Of a stretch of 42,116 bases of DNA, positions 4,987-41,259 are shown piece by piece. Every line of letters starts with the position of its first letter. Position 1 is the first letter of the stretch. The stretch lies in sequence record MN850623.1, one strand, 5' to 3'. Below the pieces are notes generated by a model. It searched no databases, was not told the origin of the DNA, and worked only from the letters and a program-made list of their open reading frames with translations. This DNA is from Escherichia phage sortsyn. Made by a program: the position numbers and the translations under genes.

Positions 4987-5015
4987 ATTATTCATTAAAC
5001 CGTTATCTAAATCAA
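4987..5015 (-). promoter_or_regulatory. Putative sigma70 promoter for the HTH-DUF2829 pair
   Basis: Minus-strand -35 TTGATT, 17-bp spacer, -10 AATAAT; overlaps the 3' end of the HNH gene. Confidence 0.4.
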
Positions 5016-5452
5016 TCTGGGTTAAGCGCTTCACCGTTAACCAGATGCCACTCTTTATGATGCCTCTCGCAGAGCCAGCGGACCTCTAACGGGCGATCGT
5101 AGTCGTCATGGTGTCCCACTACCTTCTCCGCTCCGCAGACCTCACACGGCCCCCTCGTTAGCTCTCCGCGCCTTAACGCGTTATAGACCAGATTGTGGGC
5201 CTTTCGCTTCTTTGGGTGTTTTGTGTGGTAGGAGGATTTTGTGGCGTTCGCCTTCTCCCTACCCGGTCCGGCCTGGTACTCCTTCACCTGTTCGATGATC
5301 CGCTCCTTCCTGACCGGATCGGCGTGATAGTACGCCCGGTAATTGTTGTTCTTGCACTGGCGACAGCGCGAGTCCCTTCCGTCCTTCTTGCTCTTGTTCC
5401 TGTGGAACTCCTCCAGCGGCTTCGATTCGTGACAGATGGCGCATTGTTTCAT
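5012..5452 (-). CDS. HNH endonuclease
   Basis: CxxC...CxxC zinc ligands and HNH core VVGHHDDYDRPLEVRWLCERHHKEWH; very basic; AGG/AGA-rich codon usage unlike neighbours. Confidence 0.7.
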   Translation of the reverse strand: MKQCAICHESKPLEEFHRNKSKKDGRDSRCRQCKNNNYRAYYHADPVRKERIIEQVKEYQAGPGREKANATKSSYHTKHPKKRKAHNLVYNALRRGELTRGPCEVCGAEKVVGHHDDYDRPLEVRWLCERHHKEWHLVNGEALNPD

Positions 5453-14712: not shown

Positions 14713-14773
14713 ACGCCAGAGATGATCTACAATGCCGGGGCAGTATACCGCACAATTTCACGAGGACAAAATT

Positions 14774-15538
14774 ATGGCTTTTTGGCATCGGCAATACCGC
14801 GCTGATCTTTTCGGATGGAAGGTATCGCGCATCCTTGATCCCTCCGCTCCTGGTGTACATCAAAAAGATGTTATCTGGCTGGCGTCTGAACCTGCAAACC
14901 TCGATCCTACTGGGATGTTTTATTTCCAGCCTGATCCGAAGTCAGACCAGCCTCTCCAGTTTTTGGTAAACCTTAGCGGCAACAACGGCAGCGACGTCAC
15001 GGGATCATACGTGCCTAACGGCTCCTTAAAATCATTCTCCGTACAAGTAGCCGGGGGCGTTCCTCCGTATACCTTCGCATGGTTCCGGCGTTCCGGCGGC
15101 GTGGACAACTCCGTGGGGACTAACTCCAGCACCTACTCGATCCCCGCCTACTCCTCCAGCAATAACGGGGATTATTTTTGTCGCGTGACCGATGCGCAGG
15201 GCGTCATGATCGAATCGCTACGCGAGCGCACCAAAGTATTGATCAGGCTGACGACTAACCTCCCGTTAACTGATGCGTGGGCCGTGGGCGTGTCTGACAG
15301 CCTTGCGATCGTTGTCTCTGATGGCCTTACCCCGTATACCTACCAATGGCAGAAGTCCACGGACGGCGGGGCAACCTGGAGCAACGTCGCTAACGGTGGG
15401 ACCGTCTCCGGGGCCACTACTGCAACGCTGACCAACTCCGCCCCCGCGCTGGGTGATGCCGGAATGTACCGCTGTATTATCACCGACTCAGCGGGCTATA
15501 AAGTCCAGTCCGTACAATGCGCCGTAACGGTGGCATAA
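14774..15538 (+). CDS. Moron-like protein with two immunoglobulin-like domains
   Basis: Two Ig-type repeats (PPYTFAWFRRSGG...GDYFCRVTDAQG and TPYTYQWQKSTDGG...GMYRCIITDSAG); GAGGA SD before ATG 14774 (ORF track start 14732); flanked by terminators; first 60 nt about 52 percent GC. Confidence 0.7.
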   Translation: MAFWHRQYRADLFGWKVSRILDPSAPGVHQKDVIWLASEPANLDPTGMFYFQPDPKSDQPLQFLVNLSGNNGSDVTGSYVPNGSLKSFSVQVAGGVPPYTFAWFRRSGGVDNSVGTNSSTYSIPAYSSSNNGDYFCRVTDAQGVMIESLRERTKVLIRLTTNLPLTDAWAVGVSDSLAIVVSDGLTPYTYQWQKSTDGGATWSNVANGGTVSGATTATLTNSAPALGDAGMYRCIITDSAGYKVQSVQCAVTVA

Positions 15539-18218: not shown

Positions 18219-18264
18219 CGTTATCTCTCCGGTAGTGGGCGACCCATTGCCGCCCGGTGAAAGA

Positions 18265-18307
18265 ACTATAACAACATTTGATAAATCGCTTTTAGCAATT
18301 CGTGCTA
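18265..18307 (-). promoter_or_regulatory. Promoter cassette copy C (minus strand): palindrome TAGCACGAATTGCTA plus TGtTATAGT extended -10
   Basis: Palindrome 18293-18307; hexamer 18265-18270 on the minus strand. Confidence 0.5.
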
Positions 18308-18900
18308 TCCGGGTAAAGATATTCGCTCAACCGGGCCACCAGGTCCGAGTCCGGCCCGATCGGGTACAGCCCGCCGTCGTTGTTTACCGCGTGATGGATC
18401 TCAGCCAGCAATTGCTCCGCCCGCTGGAGCTTGTTCGTCGCCGCGTTATCATGCCCGATCAGCTTCGTGATCTCAGTCTCCAGGCGTCCGCCGAGTTCGG
18501 TCGTCGTGCAGTGTTCGGCCCACTCGCGAGACTCCAGCAGTTTGACCACGGCCCACACGTCCGAGTCGAGGCCGACAGTAGGGCCAGGCTGGAGCCGTGG
18601 CTGGAGTTCGTCGAGCGTCTGCTGGGTGGCGTTTAACGTCCGGCGGATCTTGTCCTGTTCGGACTTGCTCAGATCCAGGATAAGCGGATCAGGCGGCAGA
18701 CCCAGCAGCAGAGGGCGAACCTTTTCGAACGGCTCCACGCTCAGACAATCCTCCATCGTTCCCTCCTCCGTGTCGGGGAGCGTGTAGTGGAGCCGGGCGC
18801 GTCCGGTCTTTTCGTCCAGGCTGAACGAATTGATCGCGGCGATACTCAGGAACCACTCGCAATTAAATTCCGGCTCACCTACTGCGATATATCTGATCAT
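18292..18900 (-). CDS. Hypothetical protein
   Basis: 202-aa ORF; last five codons plus stop are encoded by promoter cassette copy C. Confidence 0.5.
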   Translation of the reverse strand: MIRYIAVGEPEFNCEWFLSIAAINSFSLDEKTGRARLHYTLPDTEEGTMEDCLSVEPFEKVRPLLLGLPPDPLILDLSKSEQDKIRRTLNATQQTLDELQPRLQPGPTVGLDSDVWAVVKLLESREWAEHCTTTELGGRLETEITKLIGHDNAATNKLQRAEQLLAEIHHAVNNDGGLYPIGPDSDLVARLSEYLYPDSTNC

Positions 18901-19480: not shown

Positions 19481-21169
19481 ATGACTGATTATGATGAAGT
19501 AATGCCGACACCAGAGCGCAGCGAGGAGGAGCTGATCGAGATGGTCCGGGGCGAGTTCTCCGGCCCGGTAACGCCTCCACCTGCTGACGACGTGCCAGAG
19601 GCTCCTATGGAGTTCTACGAGGAACAGGCCAGCCTGTACGCGGCGAGAGAAGCAGAATCCGCCCAGGATGCCGGGGCGTTCTTCGACTTCGACGAGCACG
19701 AGGCCGCAGAGTGGACGGCAACCGTCCGCAACGACAAGCCGACGATCGTCAAGACGTCCGACCTCACCGACGAGGAGAAGGACGAAGCACGTCGCCAGGA
19801 ACTCCTCGCGAAGCAGCGCGAGAAGCAGCGCAAGAAGATCGACGAGGCGCTGGCGGTCGAGGCAATGGACGACCCGCTGATCGCCAGCCTGAACAAGTCG
19901 AACGAGATCAAGCCCGTTAACTATGTGATCCAGTCGCTGATCCCGGAGCGCTCCGTGGGCTTCCTGGTCGGCGAGTCCGGCGCAAAGAAAACGTTCGCAG
20001 CGTTACAAATGGCGATTTGTGTCGCCACCGGGATCGACTTCGGCGGCTTGCCAGTCCGACAGGGATCCGTGATGTACTTCGCGCCGGAGGATGCGAGCGG
20101 CGTCCGTGAACGTTACGCGGGATGGAAGTACACGCAGAACAAGAACGAGCCGTTACCCAACTTTTGGGTATTGTCCCAGCAGGTCCCACTACACCGCGAG
20201 AGCGAACTCCAGACGTTCGCGGCAACCATCAAGGCGTCCCCGTTCTTCGGCCTGAACCCGCTTTCCCTGATCGTGATCGATACCTACAGCGCCAACAGCG
20301 CGGGCCAGAAAGTGGGCGAGCGCATGATCCCAGGCAAGGGCGACGAGCCGGACCGCTGGGAGGGCGGGACCGACTTCAACGAGAACGACAACAACGTGGC
20401 GGCGATCCTGATGCGTAACGCGGCGTTACTGGCTGAATGGCTTAACTGTGCCGTGATGATCATCCACCACACCGGGAAGGACACCGAGCGAGGCGCTCGT
20501 GGCGCGTCAACCCTCCGCGCTAACGCCGGATTCGAGATCATGGTGAAGAAGTGCAGGGACAAGGAGCTTTTTGTGATTGAGCACACGAAGGCCAAAGGCT
20601 GTGCGCTTCTCCCGGCGCGAGCCATGCGCACGAAGTCCGCGAAGTTACCGCCTGACCTGGTGAAGATGAAGCGCGAGGCGCTGGCGAGGATGCAGCCTGT
20701 ACGCCCGGAGGCGAAGGCCAACCCGGCGGCGTGGGAGATCGGCGACAACCTGGGGACGCTGGTCGTCATTAACGCGCTGGAGGCAGTGCCAGCCGAGAAG
20801 GACGAGGGCGAGAAGCCGGAGGACACGCGCAAGCGCAGCAAGAAGGAGGAACAGGCGATCCGACTGCTGGCCTACGTCGTGGAATACTCGCAGCAGCGCA
20901 AGGACAAGGGCTACCGCTTGCCGAAGCTGACCAAAGGCATGTTATCCGATCACTTCCGCAACTTCGCAGAGCCGCCGATTAAGCGGACGGACTTTTTCCA
21001 CGCCTTCGAACATGCGACCAAAAAAATGATGATCATCAAAATGGCAGGGGACGAAACGCTGACCGCCTCAACCGAAGCGGCTCCGCTCCTGGGTGGAATC
21101 CGGGATCAGAAGCCACTCCCGACCGACTGGAAACCGACCGAAGGATCCGACGATCTGAGTGACTTTTAA
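19481..21169 (+). CDS. RepA-like AAA_25/RecA-fold ATPase, putative replication initiator-helicase
   Basis: GFLVGESGAKKTFAALQMA (deviant Walker A), Walker B LIVIDTYS, IIHHTGKD motif typical of RepA/DnaB-like ATPases; acidic N-terminal region. Confidence 0.65.
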   Translation: MTDYDEVMPTPERSEEELIEMVRGEFSGPVTPPPADDVPEAPMEFYEEQASLYAAREAESAQDAGAFFDFDEHEAAEWTATVRNDKPTIVKTSDLTDEEKDEARRQELLAKQREKQRKKIDEALAVEAMDDPLIASLNKSNEIKPVNYVIQSLIPERSVGFLVGESGAKKTFAALQMAICVATGIDFGGLPVRQGSVMYFAPEDASGVRERYAGWKYTQNKNEPLPNFWVLSQQVPLHRESELQTFAATIKASPFFGLNPLSLIVIDTYSANSAGQKVGERMIPGKGDEPDRWEGGTDFNENDNNVAAILMRNAALLAEWLNCAVMIIHHTGKDTERGARGASTLRANAGFEIMVKKCRDKELFVIEHTKAKGCALLPARAMRTKSAKLPPDLVKMKREALARMQPVRPEAKANPAAWEIGDNLGTLVVINALEAVPAEKDEGEKPEDTRKRSKKEEQAIRLLAYVVEYSQQRKDKGYRLPKLTKGMLSDHFRNFAEPPIKRTDFFHAFEHATKKMMIIKMAGDETLTASTEAAPLLGGIRDQKPLPTDWKPTEGSDDLSDF

Positions 21170-23465: not shown

Positions 23466-23738
23466 ATGATCTACGAACTGATCGCCTCTTTCCTGATGCT
23501 GGGCGTCGCTTATATCTTCATGGAGTGCAGGGCGGGCGCAGCGGCCTACCTGGGCCGCAAGATGGCGGAGGAGGTGAGGGCCATCCCTCACTCCCTGATC
23601 CCTCTCGTCGCCTTCATCGTGGCATTGCTGGCGGTCCTCGTGCTGGCTGTTACGCTGGTGATCTGGCCCTACTTCGCGTGGAACGACTGGCGAAACGGGA
23701 CACTGTTCAAGGCCGGGCGTTATGACGGCATCGAATAG
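23466..23738 (+). CDS. Membrane protein
   Basis: Two predicted TM helices; stop TAG is the first triplet of cassette copy E. Confidence 0.45.
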   Translation: MIYELIASFLMLGVAYIFMECRAGAAAYLGRKMAEEVRAIPHSLIPLVAFIVALLAVLVLAVTLVIWPYFAWNDWRNGTLFKAGRYDGIE

Positions 23739-23778
23739 CACGAATTGCTAAAACGCACTTATCAAATGTTGTTATAGT
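23736..23778 (+). promoter_or_regulatory. Promoter cassette copy E: palindrome TAGCACGAATTGCTA plus TGtTATAGT extended -10
   Basis: Palindrome 23736-23750; hexamer 23773-23778. Confidence 0.55.
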
Positions 23779-23825
23779 TCTTCTCGACGGCGGGAAATGG
23801 TCCCGCCACTGACCGGGAGAACATC

Positions 23826-25774: not shown

Positions 25775-26064
25775 TGGCGGTCGATAAGGGGCGCACCGTC
25801 GCCCGCAGCAAGGCGGAGGCAAGGCTGATAAAGGCTAAACTGTATCGCGGCCCGGAGTGCAAGATCCACGCGGGCAACTTCACCCGGTACACGTCAAACG
25901 GCGCTTGCATCATGTGCGCCAGCCTGACGGAGCCGAAGGGCAAGAGCCGGGGCTACATCGCCAAAAAGCGCGACGTCCAGGCGTTTAACCATCCCGTAAG
26001 CCCCTGGCCTATCACCGCCGAGAATATGCACCTTTGCCCGGATCTCTCGTTTAAGCGGACTTGA
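25774..26064 (+). CDS. Hypothetical Cys-containing basic protein
   Basis: TGATG overlap with upstream stop; RGPECKIHAGNF...GACIMCA. Confidence 0.45.
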   Translation: MAVDKGRTVARSKAEARLIKAKLYRGPECKIHAGNFTRYTSNGACIMCASLTEPKGKSRGYIAKKRDVQAFNHPVSPWPITAENMHLCPDLSFKRT

Positions 26065-26137
26065 TCACGCTTCCGTAACCGCCGATAATCCTCCGCGTAA
26101 CCCTGTGACACTCAGGCGATAACCGGAGGATTTTTTT

Positions 26138-26692
26138 GTGGCTAACGAGCAGAATTTAAAAAAGGGGAACAAGTTCTCCAAAGACAACCAGCCAGAGCGA
26201 CGCGGGAGGGCCAAGCAGAACCGGACCTTACTCCTCGAAGCCCTCCGAAAAGTACGCGTTAAGGAAGCGACCGGGCGCAGGATTGAGGATATCGATCCCG
26301 ACACTGGCGAGGTGAAGCTGAACAGCGAAACGGGCGAGCCGATCATGGTGGACGAATATGTGGAGGTCCCGCTCACGGAGGACATGTTCATCCAGCGGGC
26401 GATCCAGATGGCACTCGTAGACGGCGGCATGATGCGCGATATCATGAGCCGACTCATTCCCTACACGAAGCCCACCAGCCCGACCTATTGCTTTGAACTG
26501 ACCGGATCCACCCCGTCCGAGCGCATCACCGAGATCGAGGACCTGGTGGCGAATGGGGAGCTACCGTTCGACGCGGCGGAGGCAATGGTGAAGATGATCC
26601 GCCACGGCGCGGAAGTGTTCGAAATGTCCGAGATGGTCAAACGTCTGGACGCACTGGAGGCCCGACTGAATGGCGACAAAGAAGGCGAATAA
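26138..26692 (+). CDS. Terminase small subunit (putative)
   Basis: GTG start with GGAGG SD; N-terminus KKGNKFSKDNQPERRGRAKQNRT typical of small-terminase DNA-binding regions; sits just upstream of terL. Confidence 0.55.
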   Translation: MANEQNLKKGNKFSKDNQPERRGRAKQNRTLLLEALRKVRVKEATGRRIEDIDPDTGEVKLNSETGEPIMVDEYVEVPLTEDMFIQRAIQMALVDGGMMRDIMSRLIPYTKPTSPTYCFELTGSTPSERITEIEDLVANGELPFDAAEAMVKMIRHGAEVFEMSEMVKRLDALEARLNGDKEGE

Positions 26693-27104
26693 ACTCCCGC
26701 CGGACACTTACGGCAAGCTGGAGGCGCAGGGCCTGAAATGGTTCACGGCGTCCCCTTACCCTTATTTCATCGTGTGCTTTGACCCGCAGGACGAGGAGAT
26801 GGTGGCGAAGCTGGCGGAATGCTTCCCGGACTGGAACCGCGAGAAGGAGATCCAGCAGGGCGTCGCCATTGAGTACCACGCCGCCGACGTTAAGCTGGTG
26901 TTCGTGGGCGTCCGCCGGGGCCAATACTGGCGGACCACGATCGCACACGAGATCGTCCACGTTAAGAACTACATCGGCGACACGCTGGGGATCGAGTGGG
27001 ACCCGAACAACGACGAGCCGGAGGCGTACTTCGTGGGCTGGCTGTTTAACATGATGGAGCAGACCTTCGGGGATCTGGGCTATGGCAAAAAATCGAAAGG
27101 ATAA
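26670..27104 (+). CDS. HExxH motif protein (putative Zn-metallopeptidase-like) nested between terS and terL
   Basis: TIAHEIVHV HExxH motif; fills the 390-nt terS-terL interval with 23-nt overlaps on both sides; GGAGG SD. Confidence 0.5.
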   Translation: MATKKANKLPPDTYGKLEAQGLKWFTASPYPYFIVCFDPQDEEMVAKLAECFPDWNREKEIQQGVAIEYHAADVKLVFVGVRRGQYWRTTIAHEIVHVKNYIGDTLGIEWDPNNDEPEAYFVGWLFNMMEQTFGDLGYGKKSKG

Positions 27105-28704
27105 CCTCGATCGACTGGCTCGCCTGGAGGGGCGGGCCGCTTACGTCGCACGAGACGGCGGGCTGGTCTATGGCGTCTATGAGCCGGACGGGACCAGCGC
27201 CAAGCACTGCTACAACATGAAGAAGGTTAACGGAGAGTGGATCTACACCTCCGAGCCGCACGACATTACGATCGCGGAGTGTCTGACCCCGATCCTCCTC
27301 CGTCCGAAGCGCTTTATTATCCTGGTCGGGGGCCGTGGCTCCGGGAAGTCCCTCACCGTCGGCGGGATCATCGACGCGGACGCCCACGACGAGGCAGCGA
27401 GCGCGATGTGTCTCCGTGAGTACCAGGCATCGATCAAGGATTCAGTCCACCCGCTCCTCGTCAACCGGATCGAGGCTTACGGGCTGGACGGCTTCGAGGT
27501 ACTGGAGAAGGAGATCCGCCACTCCAACGGCGCGATCATCCGATTTAAGGGGATGGCCAGGGACCCGGCGGGCGTTAAGTCCGCGTTCGGCTTCCGTCGC
27601 TTCTGGGGCGAGGAGGCGCAGACCTTTTCCGCCGAGTCTCTCCGCCAGCTTACGCCGACCATGCGCGAAACGGGCGGCATGATGCTGTTCACCGCGAACC
27701 CCGGCTCCTCGGAGGATGCGTTCTCTCAGCGTTTTCTCATTCCATTCTGGGAGGATCTCCAGCGTGACGGCATCTACGAGGACGATCTCCACCTGATTAT
27801 CCGCGTGAACTGGGAAGATAATCCCTGGTTCCCCCCAGAGCTTCGATCGGAGATGGAGTTCGACCGCGTAACCCTCTCGAAAGCGCTGTTTGATCACGTA
27901 TGGGGCGGGATGTTTAACGACTCCGTACCGGATGCGATTATCCCGGCGGAATGGTTCGACGCGGCGATCGACGCCCACAAGAAACTCGGATTCAAGCCGT
28001 CCGGCATGAGGATCGGCGCACTCGACCCGGCGGACGTCGGGGCGGATAACAAGGCATACGGCGAGCGCTTCGGCTCCGTCGTCACCCATATGGAGGAATG
28101 GTTCGAAGGGGACGCGAACGACTCCGTAGACAAGGCGATCAACACGGCGAAGGACCACGGGATCGAGGCGTTCGTGTGGGACCGCGCCGGACTGGGCGCT
28201 GGCCTCCGTCGCCAGGTTACGGACTCATACGCCGGGACGAACGTCCTCGTAGACGGCTACAACGCCGGGGACGGCGTGAAGTTCCCGGACAACCCTGTGG
28301 AGCTGGATCACTGGCTCAACAACAAGGCGAAGGGCGACAACATTCAGAAGAATATCGACGCTTTCGCGAACCGTGGCTCCCAGGATATCTACCTGTTACG
28401 GAAGCGCTTCGAAAGGACTTACGAGGCCGTGGTGAAGGGCGTCTATCACAACCCGGACGACCTTATCAGCCTGGACAGCGAGGGGATCGGGGAGCATATG
28501 ACCAAACTCAGGGCCGAAGTGTGCCGCATCCCGCGCATTTACAACACGAACGGGAAGTTTGCCAGGATGCCAAAACCCCAAATGAGAACAAAACTCAAAA
28601 TGAAATCCCCAGGGATGGCGGACGTTCTTTGCATGTTAATGCAGCCACCGGAAGCGAAAAAAGAGGATGATTACAGCTATTATCAAGTGCCTAGCAACTC
28701 GTAA
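27082..28704 (+). CDS. Terminase large subunit
   Basis: Walker A VGGRGSGKS, ATPase plus nuclease domain layout, upstream of portal. Confidence 0.9.
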   Translation: MAKNRKDNLDRLARLEGRAAYVARDGGLVYGVYEPDGTSAKHCYNMKKVNGEWIYTSEPHDITIAECLTPILLRPKRFIILVGGRGSGKSLTVGGIIDADAHDEAASAMCLREYQASIKDSVHPLLVNRIEAYGLDGFEVLEKEIRHSNGAIIRFKGMARDPAGVKSAFGFRRFWGEEAQTFSAESLRQLTPTMRETGGMMLFTANPGSSEDAFSQRFLIPFWEDLQRDGIYEDDLHLIIRVNWEDNPWFPPELRSEMEFDRVTLSKALFDHVWGGMFNDSVPDAIIPAEWFDAAIDAHKKLGFKPSGMRIGALDPADVGADNKAYGERFGSVVTHMEEWFEGDANDSVDKAINTAKDHGIEAFVWDRAGLGAGLRRQVTDSYAGTNVLVDGYNAGDGVKFPDNPVELDHWLNNKAKGDNIQKNIDAFANRGSQDIYLLRKRFERTYEAVVKGVYHNPDDLISLDSEGIGEHMTKLRAEVCRIPRIYNTNGKFARMPKPQMRTKLKMKSPGMADVLCMLMQPPEAKKEDDYSYYQVPSNS

Positions 28705-28743
28705 TAGTTTGCGTGTATAATGCCGATGATATGACAAACGGAG

Positions 28744-29295
28744 ATGATTATGATCGGCATTGTGGACTATGACGGCGAGATGGTGGCTTGTAAGCATTGC
28801 GGAGAAGTTAAGGCAAGGACGCCGGATAACTTCGCTACTACGTCCGGCTATAAGGGGCGTAAATATGTTATGAAGGTATGCCGCAAATGCAAGAACAGCA
28901 GACACGCAGACAGGCAGCGGAAGAAGCGCGAGGCGGAGCCGGAGGTGGATCAGGCTATGCGTGAGGCAGTGAGGCGACACCGGGCAACCGGGCGAGGCTA
29001 TGCGGTATGCAAGATCAACACGTACCGAAGCCGTGACCGAAAGAAGGGCATGGAGTGCGATCTGGATCCAGACTGGTATCTGGAGAACATCACCGCCAAG
29101 CCCTGCTACTCATGCGGAGAGACGTCCGACACTATGGGCGCGGACCGCATAGACAACGACCTGGGACACATCAAGGGCAACGTTTTACCCTGCTGTGCTG
29201 ATTGCAATAGAATAAGGGCGCACCGTTTTACGATGGAAGATATGCGCGACCTAATCGGGCCAGCTATCGCAAAAGTGAAGGCAAGGCGGCTATAA
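28744..29295 (+). CDS. HNH endonuclease (free-standing, between terL and portal)
   Basis: GADRIDNDLGHIKGNVLPCCADCNRIRA HNH core plus Cys4 zinc ligands; AGA/AGG/ATA codon usage unlike neighbours. Confidence 0.8.
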   Translation: MIMIGIVDYDGEMVACKHCGEVKARTPDNFATTSGYKGRKYVMKVCRKCKNSRHADRQRKKREAEPEVDQAMREAVRRHRATGRGYAVCKINTYRSRDRKKGMECDLDPDWYLENITAKPCYSCGETSDTMGADRIDNDLGHIKGNVLPCCADCNRIRAHRFTMEDMRDLIGPAIAKVKARRL

Positions 29296-29325
29296 TCACG
29301 CCACTAACGACGAATACCGGAGATT

Positions 29326-31563
29326 ATGATGGCACGAGCAACGAAGAAGGCGCAGAACTGGCAGGAATGCGCACGTAATAAGTTAAGCGCCGCGATCGGG
29401 AGCGAGGAGTCCAGTCGTAAGAAGATGATCGAAACGGCCCGTTTCGTCCGCATTCCGGGCGCACAATGGGAAGGATCGACGAACTCCGGCTTTGCGATGG
29501 ATGATGAACGATTCCAGAAATACCCTCGATTCGAGCTTAACAAGGTCGGGCGCGAGGTGGATCGCATTATCACCGACTACCGCCTGAACCGCATCAATGT
29601 TACTTTCCGCCCGAAGGACACCCAGGCCTCCGAAGAACTGGCGGACAAGTTAAACGGCAAGTTCCGCGCAGACTTCCAGGAGTCGAACGGGCCGGAGTCC
29701 GTGGACAATACCTACGACGACGGCGTGACGGGCGGAATGGGCGCTTTTCGCATGGACACCGAACTGGAGGACGAGTTCGACCCGGACAACGAGGCCCGGC
29801 ATATTGTTTTCTATCCGATCTATGATCCGGCCTCGTGCCTGTTTATCGATCAGGACTCCAAAATGTACGATCGTTCGGATGCCATGTGGATGGCGGAGCT
29901 ATTCAGCATGACCCCAGACAAGTACGAGGAGAAATATCCCGACGCGCTCGCCCCGGAGGACCTGCTGGCGATGGACACCGGGAAGCAATTCGACTGGGCC
30001 ACGAAGGACGCGATCTATCTGGCGCGTTACTACGAGGTGAAGATCGAGGACACCACCGTGATCTCCTATAAGAACCCACTCACCGGGGACGTGGAGGTAT
30101 ACGACGAGGACGAGATCGAGCAGATCGAGGACGAGCTTAAGGCCGGAGGCTGGGAGCGCCAGAAGGACCGCAAGGTGAAACGCCGTAAGGTCTATTGCGG
30201 CCTAATGTCCGGCGGTGAATGGATCGAGGAGCCGAAGCTGATCCCGTTCGAATGGATCCCGATCTTCGTGTTCAACGCCCGCCGCTCGTTTATCGACAAC
30301 ATGGAGCGCGTAAGCGGTCACGCGACCCAGGCCCTCGACGCGCAACGTCTGGAAAACCTGATCGTGTCCATGATGGCGGACCAGGCCGCGCAGTCTGGCG
30401 GCGATAACATCCCGATCATGGATATCGACATGATTCCCGGCAAGCTGGCGGACGCCTGGGGGGAACGTAACACGAAGCGCCCGGCATACTTGCCCGCGAA
30501 ATCGCTCCGTAATGCCGCTGGTGAGGTCGTGCAGCAAGCCGGGCCACTGGGTTACACGCCATCGACTCCGCTCTCTCCAGCGCTGGCGGCGGTCCTCCAG
30601 TACACCGGGAGCACTATCCAGCAGATCGTCGGATCCTCCCAGGTCGAGGCCCTTCCGTCGAACCTTGCGACCGAAACCGTGGAGGCTATTTTCGCCCGCA
30701 TGGACGGCCAGGGCGCTCTCTACATGGACAACCTGGGGAAAACCCTCCGCCATTGCGGGCGTGTTTACCTCAGCGCGGCCCGCAAGGTCTACGGCTCGGA
30801 AAACTACGTCCGAATCAAGAACGAGGACGGGACCGACGATCTCGTGTTAATGACCGGGAAAGTGATCGACCGCGACACGGACGAGGCGATCGCGATTAAC
30901 GACCTCAAGCGCGGAAAATATGAGGTCGAGGCCGACGTGGGCGAGTCCAGCAGCACCAAACGGACTGCAACCGTCCGCAGCCTGACGACGCTCCTCCAGT
31001 CGATGGCACCAGGCGACCCGAACGCCGCCGTAGTCATGGGCCTGATCATCATGAACATGGACGGCGAAGGCTTGCAGGACTTCAAAGAGTACAGCCGCCG
31101 CCAGCTTCTCCTTAACGGCATTATCAAGCCGCAGACGGACGAAGAAAAAGCCCTTGTTCAACAGGCCCAGCAAGCGGCCCAGCAGCAGGAAAACCCGGAG
31201 ATGGTAGCCGCTCAGGGCGTAGCGCAGCAGGGACAGGCCGCAGTGATGGAGCAGGAGAACAAGCGCTTAGAATTGCAACTCAAGGCGCAGAGCACCGCGT
31301 CCGACGGCAATCTGAAACAGGCGCAGACGGTCAAGACGATGGCAGAGGCGGCAGCAATCCCGCAGGATCAGCTATTGAGCGCGATCGCCGTCCTCCAGAA
31401 GTACGTGAGCCAGCAGAACAGCGACGCCCACAAACAGGCGGATCTGTTCCTCAAGGCGCAGGGGCAAGGCCACAACCAGCAGGAGGATCGGAACGCTCGC
31501 GAGATGGCAGAACGCCAGGCGCAGCAGTCCGCCGATCGCCAGTTAGGACTCGCTGGCCTGTAA
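29326..31563 (+). CDS. Portal protein (P22 gp1-like)
   Basis: Colinear similarity to P22 portal as recalled (FYEV...EDT, KRRKVY, IPIFVF segments) and a Gln/Ala-rich C-terminal barrel region (LVQQAQQAAQQQENPEMVAAQGVAQQGQAAV). Confidence 0.92.
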   Translation: MMARATKKAQNWQECARNKLSAAIGSEESSRKKMIETARFVRIPGAQWEGSTNSGFAMDDERFQKYPRFELNKVGREVDRIITDYRLNRINVTFRPKDTQASEELADKLNGKFRADFQESNGPESVDNTYDDGVTGGMGAFRMDTELEDEFDPDNEARHIVFYPIYDPASCLFIDQDSKMYDRSDAMWMAELFSMTPDKYEEKYPDALAPEDLLAMDTGKQFDWATKDAIYLARYYEVKIEDTTVISYKNPLTGDVEVYDEDEIEQIEDELKAGGWERQKDRKVKRRKVYCGLMSGGEWIEEPKLIPFEWIPIFVFNARRSFIDNMERVSGHATQALDAQRLENLIVSMMADQAAQSGGDNIPIMDIDMIPGKLADAWGERNTKRPAYLPAKSLRNAAGEVVQQAGPLGYTPSTPLSPALAAVLQYTGSTIQQIVGSSQVEALPSNLATETVEAIFARMDGQGALYMDNLGKTLRHCGRVYLSAARKVYGSENYVRIKNEDGTDDLVLMTGKVIDRDTDEAIAINDLKRGKYEVEADVGESSSTKRTATVRSLTTLLQSMAPGDPNAAVVMGLIIMNMDGEGLQDFKEYSRRQLLLNGIIKPQTDEEKALVQQAQQAAQQQENPEMVAAQGVAQQGQAAVMEQENKRLELQLKAQSTASDGNLKQAQTVKTMAEAAAIPQDQLLSAIAVLQKYVSQQNSDAHKQADLFLKAQGQGHNQQEDRNAREMAERQAQQSADRQLGLAGL

Positions 31564-31594
31564 CTGGTCGGACCGCACGAAAAGCTAAAGACAA

Positions 31595-31620
31595 GCCCGG
31601 CAAGTCCGGGCTATTCTTTG
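31595..31620 (+). terminator. Terminator-like hairpin after portal
   Basis: Stem GCCCGG/CCGGGC then TATTCTTTG. Confidence 0.5.
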
Positions 31621-31658
31621 CCTCGACACATCACTAAACCATTACAAAGGAGTTTTGA

Positions 31659-31880
31659 ATGGCCCGATCACTGATAGCAGTCAAAGACGCCGCCGGGGAA
31701 AAGTATCTCCTCCCGGTCCGTAACATCGTGAGCGTGACGGAGTTCCCGGACAACGAGCGCCGCGTGGAGGTCAAAGTCCGCGAGCCGATCAACGGCCCAG
31801 ACGGGCGGATCTGTGGGTACGAGTTAAATCTGTATTACTCGCCAATGTCGATCGCACAATTCGAAGGGGCTTACGCATGA
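31659..31880 (+). CDS. Hypothetical protein
   Basis: 73-aa ORF. Confidence 0.45.
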   Translation: MARSLIAVKDAAGEKYLLPVRNIVSVTEFPDNERRVEVKVREPINGPDGRICGYELNLYYSPMSIAQFEGAYA

Positions 31881-32290
31881 ACCAGGAAAAAGTAATCCGC
31901 GCCGTTCTTCTGGCTCAGGCCGACGAGATGGGGATCCTCGACAAAGTGAAGGCGCACGAGGCCCGCCTGGCGGCTCGCTTCATCCAGCAGCCGACCGAGG
32001 AGGATCTGGCGGCGTATGGCCTGGCGCTGGCGCTGGTCGGCGCTCGCGCTTCGGAACTCATGACCAACGCGGAGCCGCAGGTGAAGGCGGGCGAGGTGGA
32101 ACCCGCTCCGATCGAGGTGGACCTGATGCCGACGGCGGAGCAGGTGGAGGCGGGCATTAAATCCCTGTGGGACGTCATACCGGGCGCGATGGATCAAGTC
32201 GTGCAGGACGACCCGGACGGCTCGGACGCGGTATTTTCTGACGCGGTGACGTTCGTCTGGCAAGGCATGATCGGCGCTCGCGCCAAATAG
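31877..32290 (+). CDS. Hypothetical protein
   Basis: 137-aa ORF; stop TAG is the first triplet of cassette copy F. Confidence 0.45.
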   Translation: MNQEKVIRAVLLAQADEMGILDKVKAHEARLAARFIQQPTEEDLAAYGLALALVGARASELMTNAEPQVKAGEVEPAPIEVDLMPTAEQVEAGIKSLWDVIPGAMDQVVQDDPDGSDAVFSDAVTFVWQGMIGARAK

Positions 32291-32330
32291 CACGAATTGC
32301 TAAAACAGCCTGATTATCAAATGTTATATT
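32288..32330 (+). promoter_or_regulatory. Promoter cassette copy F: palindrome TAGCACGAATTGCTA plus TGtTATATT extended -10
   Basis: Palindrome 32288-32302; hexamer 32325-32330. Confidence 0.55.
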
Positions 32331-32380
32331 GATTGTGTCGGCGGGGAATGGTCCCCGCCACTGACCAGAGAGACTACAAA

Positions 32381-38886: not shown

Positions 38887-39288
38887 ATGGAACAAAAAGA
38901 GATGATCGAACTCGTGCCAGACTCCGGCGTGGACCTCCTCCACGCCTGGGGCTTGCCGGAGTGGCCTCGCAATGCCGAGGCTAAATATTTTCTGTGGGAT
39001 CGTTGTTGCGTGTTTGCCATCATGGCGAACGATGAAGGCGGGATCGATGGTCATATGGCGATGGATCCCCCCAGACGCAGACGGTCACGCGAGGCTTGTC
39101 TGGCTTTTCTGTACCACTGGGGCCACTATGCGATCCGCGTTCCGGTCCTTATGAGTCACAAACACGCCCGGAACGTGGTCCGAAAAGTCGGATTTGTTGA
39201 AAGCCCTCCCCAGCTTGTACAATTGGTGGACGGCAGAGAGGCGGAAATTATTTTCTTGAGGAGAGGACCAAATGGGCGGAGCAATTAG
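38887..39288 (+). CDS. gp14-like virion assembly/ejection-associated protein (assignment by position)
   Basis: 133-aa ORF between tail needle and gp7-like gene, where gene 14 sits in P22-like phages. Confidence 0.45.
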   Translation: MEQKEMIELVPDSGVDLLHAWGLPEWPRNAEAKYFLWDRCCVFAIMANDEGGIDGHMAMDPPRRRRSREACLAFLYHWGHYAIRVPVLMSHKHARNVVRKVGFVESPPQLVQLVDGREAEIIFLRRGPNGRSN

Positions 39289-39934
39289 CGGGATCGGTGG
39301 GGCCGTCTCGTCCGTTTTAGGCGGTATCGGTACGAGGAAGGCGCTCAAGCAGCAGCAGAAAGCGACCGATAAACAGATGGACTACCAGCGCGAACTCCAG
39401 GCGCAACAGGCGGAATGGTTAAGCCCGTTCCGTGAGGCGGGGACGAACGCTATCCCTCAACTGACTGCGATCGCGGGCCAGCCTATCGATCGAGAGCAGC
39501 TACTTTCCGACTACTACGGCGGGCAGGAGTTCGCCATGAACGAGGAAGCGGCTCGACGTTCCCAGCTTGCCAGCGCAGAAGCGACGGGCGGACTCGGATC
39601 CACGGCTACGTCGAACAGCCTCGCGGCGATCGCGCCTACGCTGGGCCAGAACTACCTGAACGCGATGCAAGCGCAGCAGCAAGACATGTTTAACCAGCTT
39701 TTGGGCCTGACTAACGTCGGCTTATCTGGCGCTGGCGCTCAGTCCGCAGCGGCTACCGGGACCACCAACGCACTGACCGCACTCGCGGGCCAGAAGGGCC
39801 AGATCCTGGGACAAAAAGCGGCCTTGCCGTGGAATACCGCAGCAACGGCTAACAATCAAATGGCACAAGGCGCAGCGCAGGACGCTAACACGTTTACGTC
39901 CATGTTCGGCGGCATGTTCGGGAGCATGATCTAA
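39272..39934 (+). CDS. Ejection protein (P22 gp7-like)
   Basis: Gly/Ala/Gln-rich 220-aa protein in the conserved gp14-gp7-gp20-gp16 position. Confidence 0.65.
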   Translation: MGGAISGIGGAVSSVLGGIGTRKALKQQQKATDKQMDYQRELQAQQAEWLSPFREAGTNAIPQLTAIAGQPIDREQLLSDYYGGQEFAMNEEAARRSQLASAEATGGLGSTATSNSLAAIAPTLGQNYLNAMQAQQQDMFNQLLGLTNVGLSGAGAQSAAATGTTNALTALAGQKGQILGQKAALPWNTAATANNQMAQGAAQDANTFTSMFGGMFGSMI

Positions 39935-41259
39935 TGGCGCAATTACTAGGCGGTGGCGGTGGCGCAGATCCGGGCGATCTGTGGAACAACCTCCAGAACA
40001 TCCAGGCGGCGGGGACTAACACCCTCGCCAATATCGGGCAGATCCAGGCCAACACGGCGCAGCAGATCCAGAACCGACAGCAGGGCATGGCGACCCAGGC
40101 GGCGCAAGCTAATCAGGCGCAAATGGCCCAGTTCAATAAGGACTGGCAAGCAGCAGCGGGCGACCCGTCGAAGATCTCCGAACTGGCCTATAAATACCCG
40201 ACCCAGATCGAAGCACTCCAGAAGCGCCTCGGACTGGTGGATGATATTCGACGCCAGCAGGGATCCCAGCTTGCAAGCCAGGCCGACGTCGCGATCTCGC
40301 AGGGGCCGCAGATGGCCCAGCAATTCGTCCAGCAGAACGCCCCGGCGCTCCAGGCGCTGGGAATCGATCCGCAGGTGGCCTACCAGTCGGCAGCGCAGGA
40401 CCCGGAAGCGTTCAAGCGCTCAGTCCAGGCGCTCCACCTGGCGAGCAATACCAGCAAGGACCAACTGGACTACGCGAAAGAGTACATGAAGAACCAGACC
40501 GTAATCAGGGGGCAGGACGTCACCGCAGCGAGCAACGCGGCAGACCGAAATCTGAAATATATCGGACTCCAGACCGAGCGACTCAACACGAGGATCGCGC
40601 AGGAAAAGAACGATATTGAGCGACAGAAGTACGTGCAGCAGCAGCAAAAAATGCAAGCCGACAGCCTCAACACGAAGCGCGATTTTCTCCAGACCTACGA
40701 GACGCAACTCGCCCCGATCACCACGGCGATCGATCAGGCCCAGCGACTCCTCCAGCGTAAGGATCTGGCCTACGTGACGGGCAACCTGGGCGCGATTAAC
40801 AGGGGCGCGTCGTGGGTTACTGGTGGCGGCGATGCCACGGCGGAGATCATGAACCAGTTTAACCAGCTTAAAGACCAGGCCCGCGTCGCGGGTATTCAGT
40901 CTTTGCGTGGTACTGGTCCAGTGACCGAGCAGGAGGGCCGCGCAGCCGCTCAGGCGCTGATCAACGCAGACCCTCGCACCATGAGCGAGCAGCAGCTTAA
41001 GGACGTCATGACGCGCTACGTGACCGCACTCAGCAAGGGCAAGGACGCGATCGAGAAGTCGCAGGGCGGGCGCGTGGAGTCCTACCGTCGCGAGATCAAG
41101 CAGGACGACGCGAAACAGGAAGCCGTCGGACGCCTCAGCGCTGGGGGGATCCCGCAGCAGAACGCGCAAGCCGCGATTAATTACCTGATGCAGAACCCTA
41201 CCCCTAGCGTTAAGGCTCAATTTCAGGAAAAATACGGTTTTCTACCGGAGGGGCTATAA
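39934..41259 (+). CDS. Ejection protein (P22 gp20-like)
   Basis: Gln/Ala-rich 441-aa protein in the conserved position; TAATG overlap. Confidence 0.7.
   Translation: MAQLLGGGGGADPGDLWNNLQNIQAAGTNTLANIGQIQANTAQQIQNRQQGMATQAAQANQAQMAQFNKDWQAAAGDPSKISELAYKYPTQIEALQKRLGLVDDIRRQQGSQLASQADVAISQGPQMAQQFVQQNAPALQALGIDPQVAYQSAAQDPEAFKRSVQALHLASNTSKDQLDYAKEYMKNQTVIRGQDVTAASNAADRNLKYIGLQTERLNTRIAQEKNDIERQKYVQQQQKMQADSLNTKRDFLQTYETQLAPITTAIDQAQRLLQRKDLAYVTGNLGAINRGASWVTGGGDATAEIMNQFNQLKDQARVAGIQSLRGTGPVTEQEGRAAAQALINADPRTMSEQQLKDVMTRYVTALSKGKDAIEKSQGGRVESYRREIKQDDAKQEAVGRLSAGGIPQQNAQAAINYLMQNPTPSVKAQFQEKYGFLPEGL

What the first reader, a model, noticed from the sequence alone, without database searches (positions are those of the whole stretch)
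28744..29295. Two free-standing HNH endonucleases with atypical codon usage, one between terL and portal
Both HNH genes (28744-29295 and 5012-5452) use AGA/AGG/ATA codons far more than surrounding genes and look compositionally foreign. The copy between large terminase and portal is in the position where HNH proteins are known in some phages to assist terminase cutting; alternatively both are selfish homing-type insertions.
Basis: partly seen in the sequence, partly recalled or inferred. Interest (0 to 1): 0.5.

Follow-up and report, generated by a model that had tools for sequence, protein, structure and literature searches.

The report
Mobile nuclease gene between terminase and portal
The small nuclease gene between the terminase and portal genes of this coliphage is a selfish, horizontally moving "homing endonuclease" cassette that most close relatives lack, whereas the second nuclease gene named in the finding is an old, conserved resident of the phage's recombination module. 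Both are ordinary kinds of phage gene.

Summary
The window is a whole Murrayvirus-type podophage genome, closest to IME_EC2. Both ORFs exist and both are His-Me finger (HNH superfamily) nucleases.

**Codon claim: partly right.**
- AGA/AGG is enriched in both genes (7/22 and 7/15 Arg codons, against 88/800 genome-wide).
- ATA occurs only in the first gene.
- Overall codon atypicality ranks 4th and 8th of 60 genes.
- The second gene has normal GC3.

**ORF 28744-29295**
- It is absent from 16 related genomes or contigs, where the terL stop and the portal ATG are 15-18 nt apart.
- It is present at the same site in five contigs from three different genomic backgrounds.
- It always travels with a recoded, almost purely synonymous version of the last ~133 nt of terL. 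Informative sites are 107:10 upstream against 0:43 in the tract.
- Its two alleles show dN/dS of 0.19.
- This is the signature of a free-standing homing endonuclease with co-conversion. A terminase-helper role is not supported.

**ORF 5012-5452**
- It is conserved and syntenic (exoVIII-Erf-SSB-HNH-XRE) across at least four phage lineages, so it is not a recent insertion.

**Verdict:** a new member of a known kind, of modest interest.

The parts
27082..28704 (+). Large terminase subunit gene (terL). The body up to about 28548 is native, IME_EC2/L104-like sequence.
   Evidence: It hits Pfam Terminase_3 at 1.6e-31 and is 98.7% aa identical to IME_EC2 gp42. Nucleotide identity to IME_EC2 is 98-100% per 60-nt window until about 28460.
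28572..28704 (+). Recoded terL 3' tract (last ~44 codons) that travels with the nuclease gene. In this genome the conversion tract extends a little further left, to between 28549 and 28564.
   Evidence: The tract is 99% identical to the same tract in L004 (ST231-like background), but only 68-74% identical to the window's own background (IME_EC2, L104). Almost all changes are synonymous. Informative sites are 107:10 upstream against 0:43 here, Fisher 1e-29. GC is 0.43, against 0.50 in the IME_EC2 counterpart.
28705..28749 (+). Cassette leader: a TATAAT box at 28716-28721 and a GGAG ribosome-binding site at 28740-28743.
   Evidence: Read directly from the sequence. 'TGTATAATGCCGAT' and the GGAG spacing are conserved in the 75%-identical L003 allele. 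The consensus promoter scan did not call this site because no -35 box is present.
28744..29295 (+). Free-standing PacI-like His-Me finger nuclease gene (the putative homing endonuclease). The probable start is 28750.
29287..29296 (+). CGGCTATAAT at the end of the nuclease ORF, identical to terL positions -29..-20 of genomes that lack the gene.
   Evidence: In L003 the identity continues through the entire terL end (CGGCTATAATGTGCCGAGCAACCGCTAA) and the intergenic spacer, giving a perfect 27-nt terL remnant downstream of the nuclease gene. In the window the next 17 nt (29297-29313) are not significantly similar to the terL end.
29314..31563 (+). Native intergenic spacer/RBS and the P22-type portal gene. 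The background sequence resumes immediately.
   Evidence: The first 100 nt of portal are 100% identical to IME_EC2. The gene hits Pfam P22_portal at 3.5e-156. L004 and L006 differ in where they switch back to the ST231-like sequence within about 15 nt of the portal ATG.
5012..5452 (-). Second nuclease gene: canonical-motif HNH (C103, C106, H114, H115, D117, C128, H132, H136) with an N-terminal zinc ribbon. It is a conserved member of the recombination module.

Best explanation
**What it is.** ORF 28744-29295 is a free-standing homing endonuclease gene. It sits in a ~750-bp mobile cassette made of four parts:
- a recoded copy of the last ~44 codons of terL;
- a short leader with a TATAAT box and a ribosome-binding site;
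- the nuclease ORF;
- a few bases of 3' tail.

**The protein.** It has an N-terminal CxxC...CxxC zinc ribbon, a helical linker and a C-terminal PacI-like beta-beta-alpha-metal domain. The usual first histidine of HNH is an arginine (D134-R135). A His/Tyr in the omega loop (H142) takes the general-base position. D134 and N155 are the likely metal ligands.

**Proposed mechanism** (only the outcome of steps 2-3 is shown by comparative genomics; the steps themselves are inferred)
1. During co-infection with a relative that lacks the gene, the enzyme cuts that relative's DNA in or near the 3' end of terL.
2. The break is repaired from the nuclease-carrying genome, plausibly by the phage's own exoVIII/Erf/SSB/RusA functions.
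3. The nuclease gene and the adjoining recoded terL tract are copied in together.
4. The recoded tract keeps TerL protein almost unchanged while altering the DNA. That would make carrier genomes immune to cutting.

**The other gene.** ORF 5012-5452 is a different kind of thing: a canonical-motif HNH nuclease fixed in the recombination/early module of this whole phage lineage and inherited vertically. Its raised AGA/AGG use is an old trait of the gene.
For: **Presence and absence at one exact site**
- Eight GenBank isolates and eight further contigs have terL stop to portal ATG = 15-18 nt.
- The window and L003-L007 carry a 624-629-nt insert there.

**The same cassette in different backgrounds**
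- The window and L004 cassettes match at 613 of 621 nt.
- Yet the terL body of the window is 99% IME_EC2-like, that of L004 is 99% ST231-like, and that of L003 is 94-96% Sortsne-like.

**Co-conversion**
- Informative sites switch from 107:10 (own background : other carrier) to 0:43 in the last 133 nt of terL. Fisher p is 1e-29 for the window and 3e-24 for L004.
- L003 differs from Sortsne at 0.042 per site upstream and 0.278 per site in the tract, with the first difference at -132.
- The portal returns to the background sequence at once.
- L004 and L006 differ in their right-hand crossover.

**An active-looking nuclease**
- C121, C124, G132, D134, R135, N146, C151, C154, N155 and R158 are invariant or nearly so in 95 homologues.
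- dN/dS is 0.19 between alleles.

**Not an intron:** Rfam finds nothing, and terL ends with its own stop codon.

**Precedent**
- Free-standing phage homing endonucleases with co-conversion and marker exclusion are well described (PMC2988022).
- PacI-like HNH genes that are variably present, and presumed to be homing endonucleases, were reported in Skunavirus (PMC12724721).

**HNH2:**
Against: - No cleavage activity or target site has been shown. Mobility could in principle come from ordinary homologous recombination plus hitch-hiking.
- The one PacI-like enzyme tested in Skunavirus showed no exclusion activity against the phage tried (PMC12724721).
- The common left edge of the foreign block (-132) may reflect a single ancestral junction rather than a cleavage site.
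- Only five carrier loci in three backgrounds are available, four of them near-identical.
- No source of the cassette was found at the DNA level.
- The codon and GC deviation of the gene is real but not extreme.
Confidence: 0.75

Rival explanations
1. Terminase helper. The nuclease between terL and portal works with the terminase in genome cutting or packaging, like HK97 gp74, GVE2 HNH or the conserved Skunavirus HrdP.
For: The position between terL and portal matches the Skunavirus HrdP gene, which is present in all 89 genomes studied and is implicated in packaging (PMC12724721). HNH genes next to terminase genes are common in cos phages (PMC3592412).
Against: - Sixteen close relatives, including eight cultured isolates up to 98% identical, lack the gene and have terL abutting portal.
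- The terminase is Terminase_3 with a P22-type portal, a headful-type set that is not known to need an HNH (established knowledge).
- Homologues in other phages are not next to terminase.
Confidence: 0.04
2. Passenger accessory nuclease. The gene is a useful nuclease carried on a recombination-prone cassette and spread by ordinary homologous recombination and selection, not by cutting its own empty site. It might be a restriction-like enzyme against competing phages, host DNA or defence elements.
For: - PacI itself is a restriction enzyme, and viral PacI homologues have been suggested to be viral restriction enzymes (PMC5714182).
- Purifying selection (dN/dS 0.19) fits any functional nuclease.
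- The family is very large and found in many contexts.
Against: - Recombination breakpoints hug the cassette within about 25 nt on both sides in three backgrounds.
- A recoded, synonymous replacement of the adjacent essential-gene end always accompanies the gene. That is what target-site immunity predicts and is not needed for a simple passenger.
- The insertion sits between two essential conserved genes, the classic niche of homing endonuclease genes (PMC10448857).
Confidence: 0.16
3. Decaying or inactive remnant. The ORF is a dead homing endonuclease gene that no longer does anything.
For: Many phage HNH homing genes are truncated remnants (56 of 268 in Skunavirus, PMC12724721). The canonical first histidine is missing.
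Against: - The ORF is full length.
- All family-invariant residues are intact.
- The missing histidine is the normal state of the PacI group (PMC5714182).
- dN/dS is 0.19 over about 1 synonymous change per site between alleles, and 0.04 between near-identical copies.
Confidence: 0.05

Closest known systems
Free-standing homing endonucleases of T-even phages (SegA-G, MobA-E; 'intronless homing')
   Same: - It is a stand-alone nuclease gene inserted between conserved essential genes.
- It is present in some relatives and absent in others at the same site.
- Flanking markers are co-converted with the gene (PMC2988022; here).
   Different: - The catalytic domain differs: PacI-like His-Me finger, against GIY-YIG (Seg) or canonical HNH (Mob).
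- The host differs: a P22-like-module podophage.
- The co-converted tract is short and one-sided, about 133-155 nt into terL and under 25 nt on the portal side.
- Activity is untested here.
PacI restriction endonuclease (PDB 3LDY/3M7K; His-Me finger group 20)
   Same: - It shares the D-R...G-[Y/H]...N...C-x2-C-N-x2-[R/K] motif, with the canonical histidine absent (PMC5714182, PMC4081073).
   Different: - The general-base position is His here (Tyr in PacI; the family splits 55 Tyr : 40 His).
- The protein has an extra N-terminal CxxC...CxxC zinc ribbon.
- It is phage-borne and behaves as a mobile element rather than a cellular restriction enzyme.
- Dimer state and target are unknown.
PacI-like HNH endonucleases of lactococcal Skunavirus phages (PMC12724721)
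   Same: They are PacI-like by homology, variably present among close relatives, located in the morphogenesis module and presumed to be homing endonucleases.
   Different: - They occur in a different phage group and at a different insertion site.
- No flank co-conversion analysis was reported for them in the passages read.
- The one tested showed no exclusion activity.
Packaging-associated HNH proteins (HK97 gp74, GVE2 HNH, Skunavirus HrdP)
   Same: The gene is a small His-Me finger nuclease gene next to terL. HrdP even lies between terL and portal.
   Different: - Those are conserved in every member of their phage group and have a canonical HNH fold.
- This one is missing from most relatives and is PacI-like.
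F-CphI of cyanophage S-PM2 (Endo VII-motif 'DHHRN' homing endonuclease, PMC6083498)
   Same: It is a free-standing phage homing endonuclease from a non-classical branch of the His-Me finger superfamily. The PHROG label for the window protein is 'endonuclease VII'.
   Different: - The window protein has no detectable Endonuclease_7 Pfam match.
- It has D-R rather than D-H at the start of the motif.

Membership tests
His-Me finger (HNH / beta-beta-alpha-metal) superfamily, tested on ORF 28744-29295 | beta-beta-alpha-metal core fold with Asp/Asn metal ligands | tested here: met
   [not shown]
PacI-like group (His-Me finger group 20) | Canonical general-base histidine of strand 1 absent | tested here: met
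   D134-R135 is invariant in 95 of 95 sequences where HNH proteins have D/H-H. It aligns to PacI 'GVDRSD'.
PacI-like group (His-Me finger group 20) | Tyrosine in the omega loop acting as general base or nucleophile | tested here: inconclusive
   The aligned position is H142 in the window protein. Across the family it is Tyr in 55 and His in 40 of 95 sequences. His could do the same job, but this is not shown.
PacI-like group (His-Me finger group 20) | Cys4 zinc sites flanking the catalytic motif | tested here: met
   C121, C124, C151 and C154 are invariant or nearly so. A second CxxC...CxxC set (C16, C19, C46, C49) lies in the N-terminal ribbon. Metal binding itself was not tested.
PacI-like group (His-Me finger group 20) | Homodimer cutting a palindromic 8-bp site | not testable with these tools
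   No oligomer or target information can be obtained here.
Free-standing homing endonuclease gene | Present or absent at one identical site among close relatives | tested here: met
   Sixteen loci lack it (15-18 nt spacer). Five analysed loci carry it (624-629 nt).
Free-standing homing endonuclease gene | Co-conversion of flanking markers with the gene | tested here: met
   The last 133 nt of terL are 99% identical between carriers in different backgrounds and 68-79% identical to each carrier's own background. The site-pattern switch has Fisher p of 1e-24 to 1e-29.
Free-standing homing endonuclease gene | Not inside an intron or intein; own translation signals | tested here: met
   terL ends with TAA at 28702-28704. 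GGAG lies 6 nt before ATG 28750. No Rfam family matches at E<=1.
Free-standing homing endonuclease gene | Site-specific cleavage of the empty allele and immunity of the carrier allele | not testable with these tools
   Only compatible sequence differences are seen. The empty-allele sequence around -29 is absent from the window at up to 3 mismatches, and the -137..-117 block is recoded.
Packaging-associated HNH (HK97 gp74 / GVE2 HNH / HrdP) | Conserved in all members of the phage group | tested here: not met
   It is absent from 16 of 21 related loci, including eight cultured isolates.
Packaging-associated HNH (HK97 gp74 / GVE2 HNH / HrdP) | Canonical HNH domain of the GVE2/gp74 type | tested here: not met
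   [not shown]
Packaging-associated HNH (HK97 gp74 / GVE2 HNH / HrdP) | Stimulates terminase cutting | not testable with these tools
   This needs biochemistry.
T4 endonuclease VII / F-CphI 'DHHRN' family | Endonuclease_7 domain with D-H-x-H ... N catalytic residues | tested here: not met
   No Endonuclease_7 hit in Pfam at E<=10. The motif is D-R. The 'endonuclease VII' name comes only from a PHROG label.
Recently acquired foreign or homing insertion, tested on ORF 5012-5452 | Absent from some close relatives at an intact site | tested here: not met
   It is present in all 13 related records (76-98% aa) and in Skarpretter and C130_2 (54-56%). Synteny is the same in Sortsne, Kc237 and Skarpretter.

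The most novel reading that the evidence does not exclude
PacI-like nucleases form a very large family: about 29,000 clusters at E<=1e-10 in the 50%-identity library. The family has no Pfam or NCBIfam model. It may be a major unrecognised family of phage homing endonucleases.

In this example:
- the enzyme would use a histidine where PacI uses tyrosine;
- it would target the 3' end of the large terminase gene of rival phages;
- the cassette carries its own synonymous 'immune' replacement of the last ~44 terL codons.

Each homing event would then rewrite part of an essential packaging gene. This natural set of carrier and empty alleles would allow the target site to be mapped directly.
Probability: 0.45. 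Interest if true: 0.5.

Novelty: new member of a known kind. Interest (0 to 1): 0.35.

Why it matters
- It shows that position next to the terminase is not enough to call an HNH protein a packaging factor. Here conservation across relatives and fold type separate a selfish homing gene from a packaging helper.
- It supplies a clean natural data set for testing whether PacI-like nucleases are true homing endonucleases and for mapping their target. The set has three backgrounds, sharp recombination edges and a recoded essential-gene end.
- It also warns that rare-codon enrichment alone is a poor marker of foreign origin. The conserved second nuclease has the stronger AGA/AGG excess.

Tried and rejected
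- **Group I intron carrying the ORF.** No Rfam match at E<=1 in 28300-29600, and terL has its own stop codon and complete C-terminus.
- **The nuclease start region as a duplicate of the portal ribosome-binding region.** The portal ranks only 3rd of 58 start regions in the window, and first by a narrow margin in L003. This is not significant.
- **A decayed 27-nt terL remnant after the ORF in the window.** Only CGGCTATAAT is shared. The next 17 nt score no better than shuffles (18,376 of 20,000 reach the score). The remnant is real only in L003.
- **A DNA-level source of the cassette.** No blastn match in the phage collection.
- **More relatives in other collections.** IMG/VR and the JGI metagenome scan added no new close relatives: only three known isolates and one contig that the look-up of encoding contigs also returned, all lacking the gene. 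Useful extra loci came from exact-protein look-ups instead.
- **A defence-system identity.** The only hit is a weak PADLOC match to PtuB over 25 residues (E 0.0045), which reflects the shared HNH motif.
- **An own sigma-70 promoter.** The consensus scan did not call the TATAAT at 28716 because there is no -35 box. It is kept only as a conserved -10-like box.
- **A palindromic target around terL -29.** Considered by eye and dropped, because the left arm is not conserved in Sortsnevirus genomes that lack the gene.

Full report
**What the window is.** The 42,116-bp window is colinear with Enterobacteria phage IME_EC2 (genus Murrayvirus) at 94-99% nucleotide identity over almost its whole length. 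Fifty-nine of the 60 annotated IME_EC2 proteins map onto it. Its length, 59% G+C and closest relative match the table entry for Escherichia phage sortsyn (MN850623, 42,116 bp, Murrayvirus) in PMC7552041. It is therefore probably that complete genome. This is an inference from matching figures, not a direct match.

**Checking the observation.** Both ORFs are real.
- ORF 28744-29295 lies between terL (27082-28704; Pfam Terminase_3, 1.6e-31) and a P22-type portal gene (29326-31563; 3.5e-156).
- GGAG at 28740-28743 sits 6 nt before the ATG at 28750. Independent gene calls in other contigs give 181 aa, so 28750 is the likelier start.
- The ORF matches PHROG 1035 ('endonuclease VII', 1.6e-19) and an HNH PHROG.
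- ORF 5012-5452 (minus strand) matches PHROG 2340 ('endonuclease', 2.9e-43).
- Neither hits any Pfam or NCBIfam model.

**Codon statistics.** I used a 60-gene set transferred from the IME_EC2 annotation.

| Measure | HNH1 (28744-29295) | HNH2 (5012-5452) | Genome |
|---|---|---|---|
| AGA+AGG among Arg codons | 7/22 (Fisher p=0.0066) | 7/15 (p=0.00048) | 88/800 |
| ATA among Ile codons | 2/10 (p=0.02) | 0/3 | 15/660 |
| GC3 | 0.659 | 0.724 | mean 0.745, sd 0.064 |
| Codon-likelihood z (leave-one-out, simulated null) | -4.2 (4th of 60) | -2.35 (8th of 60) | - |

- Three other genes (gp30, the spanin gene gp07, the Hoc-like gp08) are more atypical than HNH1.
- The AGA/AGG enrichment is real. The ATA claim holds for one gene only.
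- 'Compositionally foreign' is defensible only for HNH1, and even there it is not extreme.
- HNH2 orthologues in IME_EC2, Sortsne and Kc237 also have 4/15, 4/16 and 5/18 AGR codons. In that gene the bias is long-standing.

**Presence and absence of HNH1.**
- Every related phage record in the collection aligns to window 26000-32000 in two pieces that skip the ORF.
- In IME_EC2, ST231, sortregn, KMB41, Lumpael, Sortsne, sortkaff and IME279 the terL stop and the portal ATG are 15-18 nt apart.
- An exact-protein look-up with the small gene downstream of portal returned eight further contigs, all with the same empty junction.
- The protein search found a 99%-identical protein (P0001) and a 75%-identical one (P0002).
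- Every contig that encodes either protein places the gene between terL and portal of related phages (L003-L007).
- No nucleotide match to the insert exists in the phage collection. The best protein matches there are only 38-40% identical.

**Mosaic structure around the insert.**
- Away from the junction, each carrier matches a different empty genome. The window's terL body is 99% like IME_EC2, L004's is 99% like ST231, and L003's is 94-96% like Sortsne. The portal genes follow the same pattern.
- The insert itself matches at 613 of 621 nt between the window and L004, and at 453 of 621 between the window and L003.
- In the last 133 nt of terL the pattern flips. The window and L004 are 99% identical there. 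Each is only 68-79% identical to its own background.
- Counting informative sites:

| Comparison | terL positions 1-1490 | Last 133 nt | Fisher p |
|---|---|---|---|
| Window agrees with IME_EC2 : with L004 | 107 : 10 | 0 : 43 | 1e-29 |
| L004 agrees with ST231 : with window | 106 : 9 | 1 : 34 | 3e-24 |

- L003 differs from Sortsne at 0.042 per site upstream and 0.278 per site in the tract. There are no differences between -260 and -133, and the first is at -132.
- The amino-acid sequence across most of the tract is unchanged, so the changes are almost all synonymous.
- The tract is A+T-shifted: GC 0.43, against 0.50 in the IME_EC2 counterpart.
- In the window the switch lies between -156 and -140, slightly left of the foreign block. 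There the window carries the ST231/L004-type AGG codon.
- On the right side the background sequence resumes within about 25 nt. L004/L007 and L006 differ in whether the portal ribosome-binding region is IME_EC2-like or ST231-like.
- Together this shows one cassette moved by recombination into at least three backgrounds, in more than one event, always dragging a recoded terL end with it.

**The L003 junction.** In L003 the nuclease ORF ends in CGGCTATAA. The sequence then continues as a perfect copy of the last 27 nt of Sortsne terL plus the native spacer, although L003 terL already has its own recoded copy of those nine codons upstream.
- Any target of the L003 enzyme therefore cannot lie wholly within those 27 nt and the sequence downstream of them.
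- In the window only CGGCTATAAT (29287-29296) is shared. The following 17 nt are not significantly similar to the terL end.

**The HNH1 protein.**
- phmmer against PDB sequences finds the PacI restriction enzyme (E=0.005), aligning residues 129-178 to PacI 87-135.
- An AlphaFold2 model built on 95 homologues has mean pLDDT 93.6.
- Family-invariant or near-invariant residues are C121, C124, G132, D134, R135, N146, C151, C154, N155 and R158. Position 142 is Tyr in 55 and His in 40 of 95 sequences.
- In PacI the canonical histidine is missing and an omega-loop tyrosine takes its role, with Asp and Asn binding the metal (PMC5714182; PMC4081073). The window protein has His at the aligned position.
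- The N-terminal 50 residues form a CxxC...CxxC zinc ribbon. Profile comparison shows it is homologous to the N-terminus of HNH2 (probability 95%), while the catalytic domains do not align.
- The family is very large: 29,202 cluster representatives at E<=1e-10. It occurs in phages and giant viruses.
- None of the 98 homologues from the word-indexed search has a Pfam hit on record for this domain. Two carry unrelated families (PF18930, PF00574).
- Between the window and L003 alleles dN/dS is 0.19, at about one synonymous change per site. The protein is therefore under purifying selection.

**Interpretation of HNH1.**
- Five features are the standard signature of a free-standing homing endonuclease gene as worked out in T-even phages (PMC2988022), and of nuclease genes at exchange boundaries next to essential genes (PMC10448857):
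  - a site-specific presence/absence polymorphism;
  - the same gene in different backgrounds;
  - breakpoints that hug the gene;
  - an always-linked synonymous rewrite of the neighbouring essential gene;
  - an intact, constrained nuclease.
- The phage also encodes its own exoVIII, Erf, SSB and RusA-like functions (annotation of NC_047742), which could repair a break. That step is inferred.
- Where the enzyme cuts is not known. Two candidates follow from the comparison. One is the block ATGCCTAAGCCGCAGATGCG at -137..-117, nearly invariant in 13 empty haplotypes and carrying 4-5 synonymous changes in carriers. The other is the region around -29.
- No copy of the empty-allele sequence around -29 exists in the window at up to three mismatches.
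- Cleavage itself, its site and nuclease-dependent over-transmission are unproven. Ordinary recombination of a useful passenger gene remains a live rival.

**The terminase-helper idea.**
- There is a real precedent for the position. All 89 Skunavirus genomes carry a GVE2-like HNH between terL and portal that is linked to packaging. In the same study the PacI-like HNH genes were rare, variable and presumed to be homing genes (PMC12724721).
- Here the gene fails the two testable criteria of the packaging class. It is missing from 16 of 21 related loci, including eight cultured isolates, and it is not GVE2-like.
- Its homologues elsewhere sit next to DNA polymerase I in a Dhillonvirus and among small early genes in a Webervirus.
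- The Terminase_3/P22-portal pair is of the headful type, which is not known to need an HNH partner (established knowledge).

**ORF 5012-5452.**
- It has the canonical pattern C103-x2-C106 ... H114-H115-D-D117-Y ... C128 ... H132 ... H136.
- It is present in all 13 related records at 76-98% identity, and at 54-56% in Skarpretter and C130_2.
- It lies in the same order exoVIII-Erf-SSB-HNH-XRE regulator in IME_EC2, Sortsne, Kosakonia phage Kc237 and Skarpretter.
- Its dN/dS is 0.16-0.24, close to that of the neighbouring SSB gene (0.10-0.17).
Whether it is an anciently fixed homing gene or a working recombination/replication nuclease cannot be told here.

**Novelty and verdict.** Free-standing homing endonuclease genes between essential phage genes are well known. 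PacI-like, variably present HNH genes in phages have been noted (PMC12724721). This is a new member of a known kind. Its added value is an unusually clean natural record of co-conversion and a testable target prediction for a large nuclease family that has no Pfam or NCBIfam model. Interest is modest.

Noticed in passing
window 23734-23814 (+), 32286-32366 (+), 18241-18311 (inverted): An ~81-nt intergenic element occurs in three copies (70-80% alike). It has TTGCTA ... TATAGT-like promoter boxes followed by a G+C hairpin (GGCGGGAAATGGTCCCGCC). The same element cross-matches several IME_EC2 intergenic regions. It is probably a repeated promoter/leader unit.
   Followed up: no
L004/L005 6868-7356; L103 9782-10117: Relatives carry other sporadic free-standing HNH_3 ORFs at different sites. 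One lies between the gp45 and gp44 homologues upstream of terL. Another lies just after the major capsid gene. Both are absent from the window. The structural module of this phage group is repeatedly colonised by nuclease genes.
   Followed up: partly
whole window: Length (42,116 bp), 59% G+C and closest relative match the published entry for Escherichia phage sortsyn (MN850623) in PMC7552041. That record itself was not among the phage-collection hits.
   Followed up: partly
window 39934-41259 and 19481-21169: Each is a single long ORF (441 aa and 562 aa) where IME_EC2 is annotated with two genes (gp28+gp27; gp59+gp58). This points to a frameshift or annotation difference in one of the two genomes.
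   Followed up: no
window 28744-28890 and 5350-5452 (N-termini of the two nucleases): The two otherwise different nucleases share a homologous N-terminal CxxC...F...G...CxxC zinc ribbon (hhalign probability 95%). The same module aligns to Hpy99I residues 76-113. It may be a portable DNA-binding module.
   Followed up: partly
window 14732-15538 (gp08, Hoc-like) and 38887-39288 (gp30): These genes are as atypical in codon use as the inserted nuclease, or more so (z -4.4 and -5.5). gp08 is only 61% identical to its IME_EC2 counterpart. They may be other exchanged segments.
   Followed up: no
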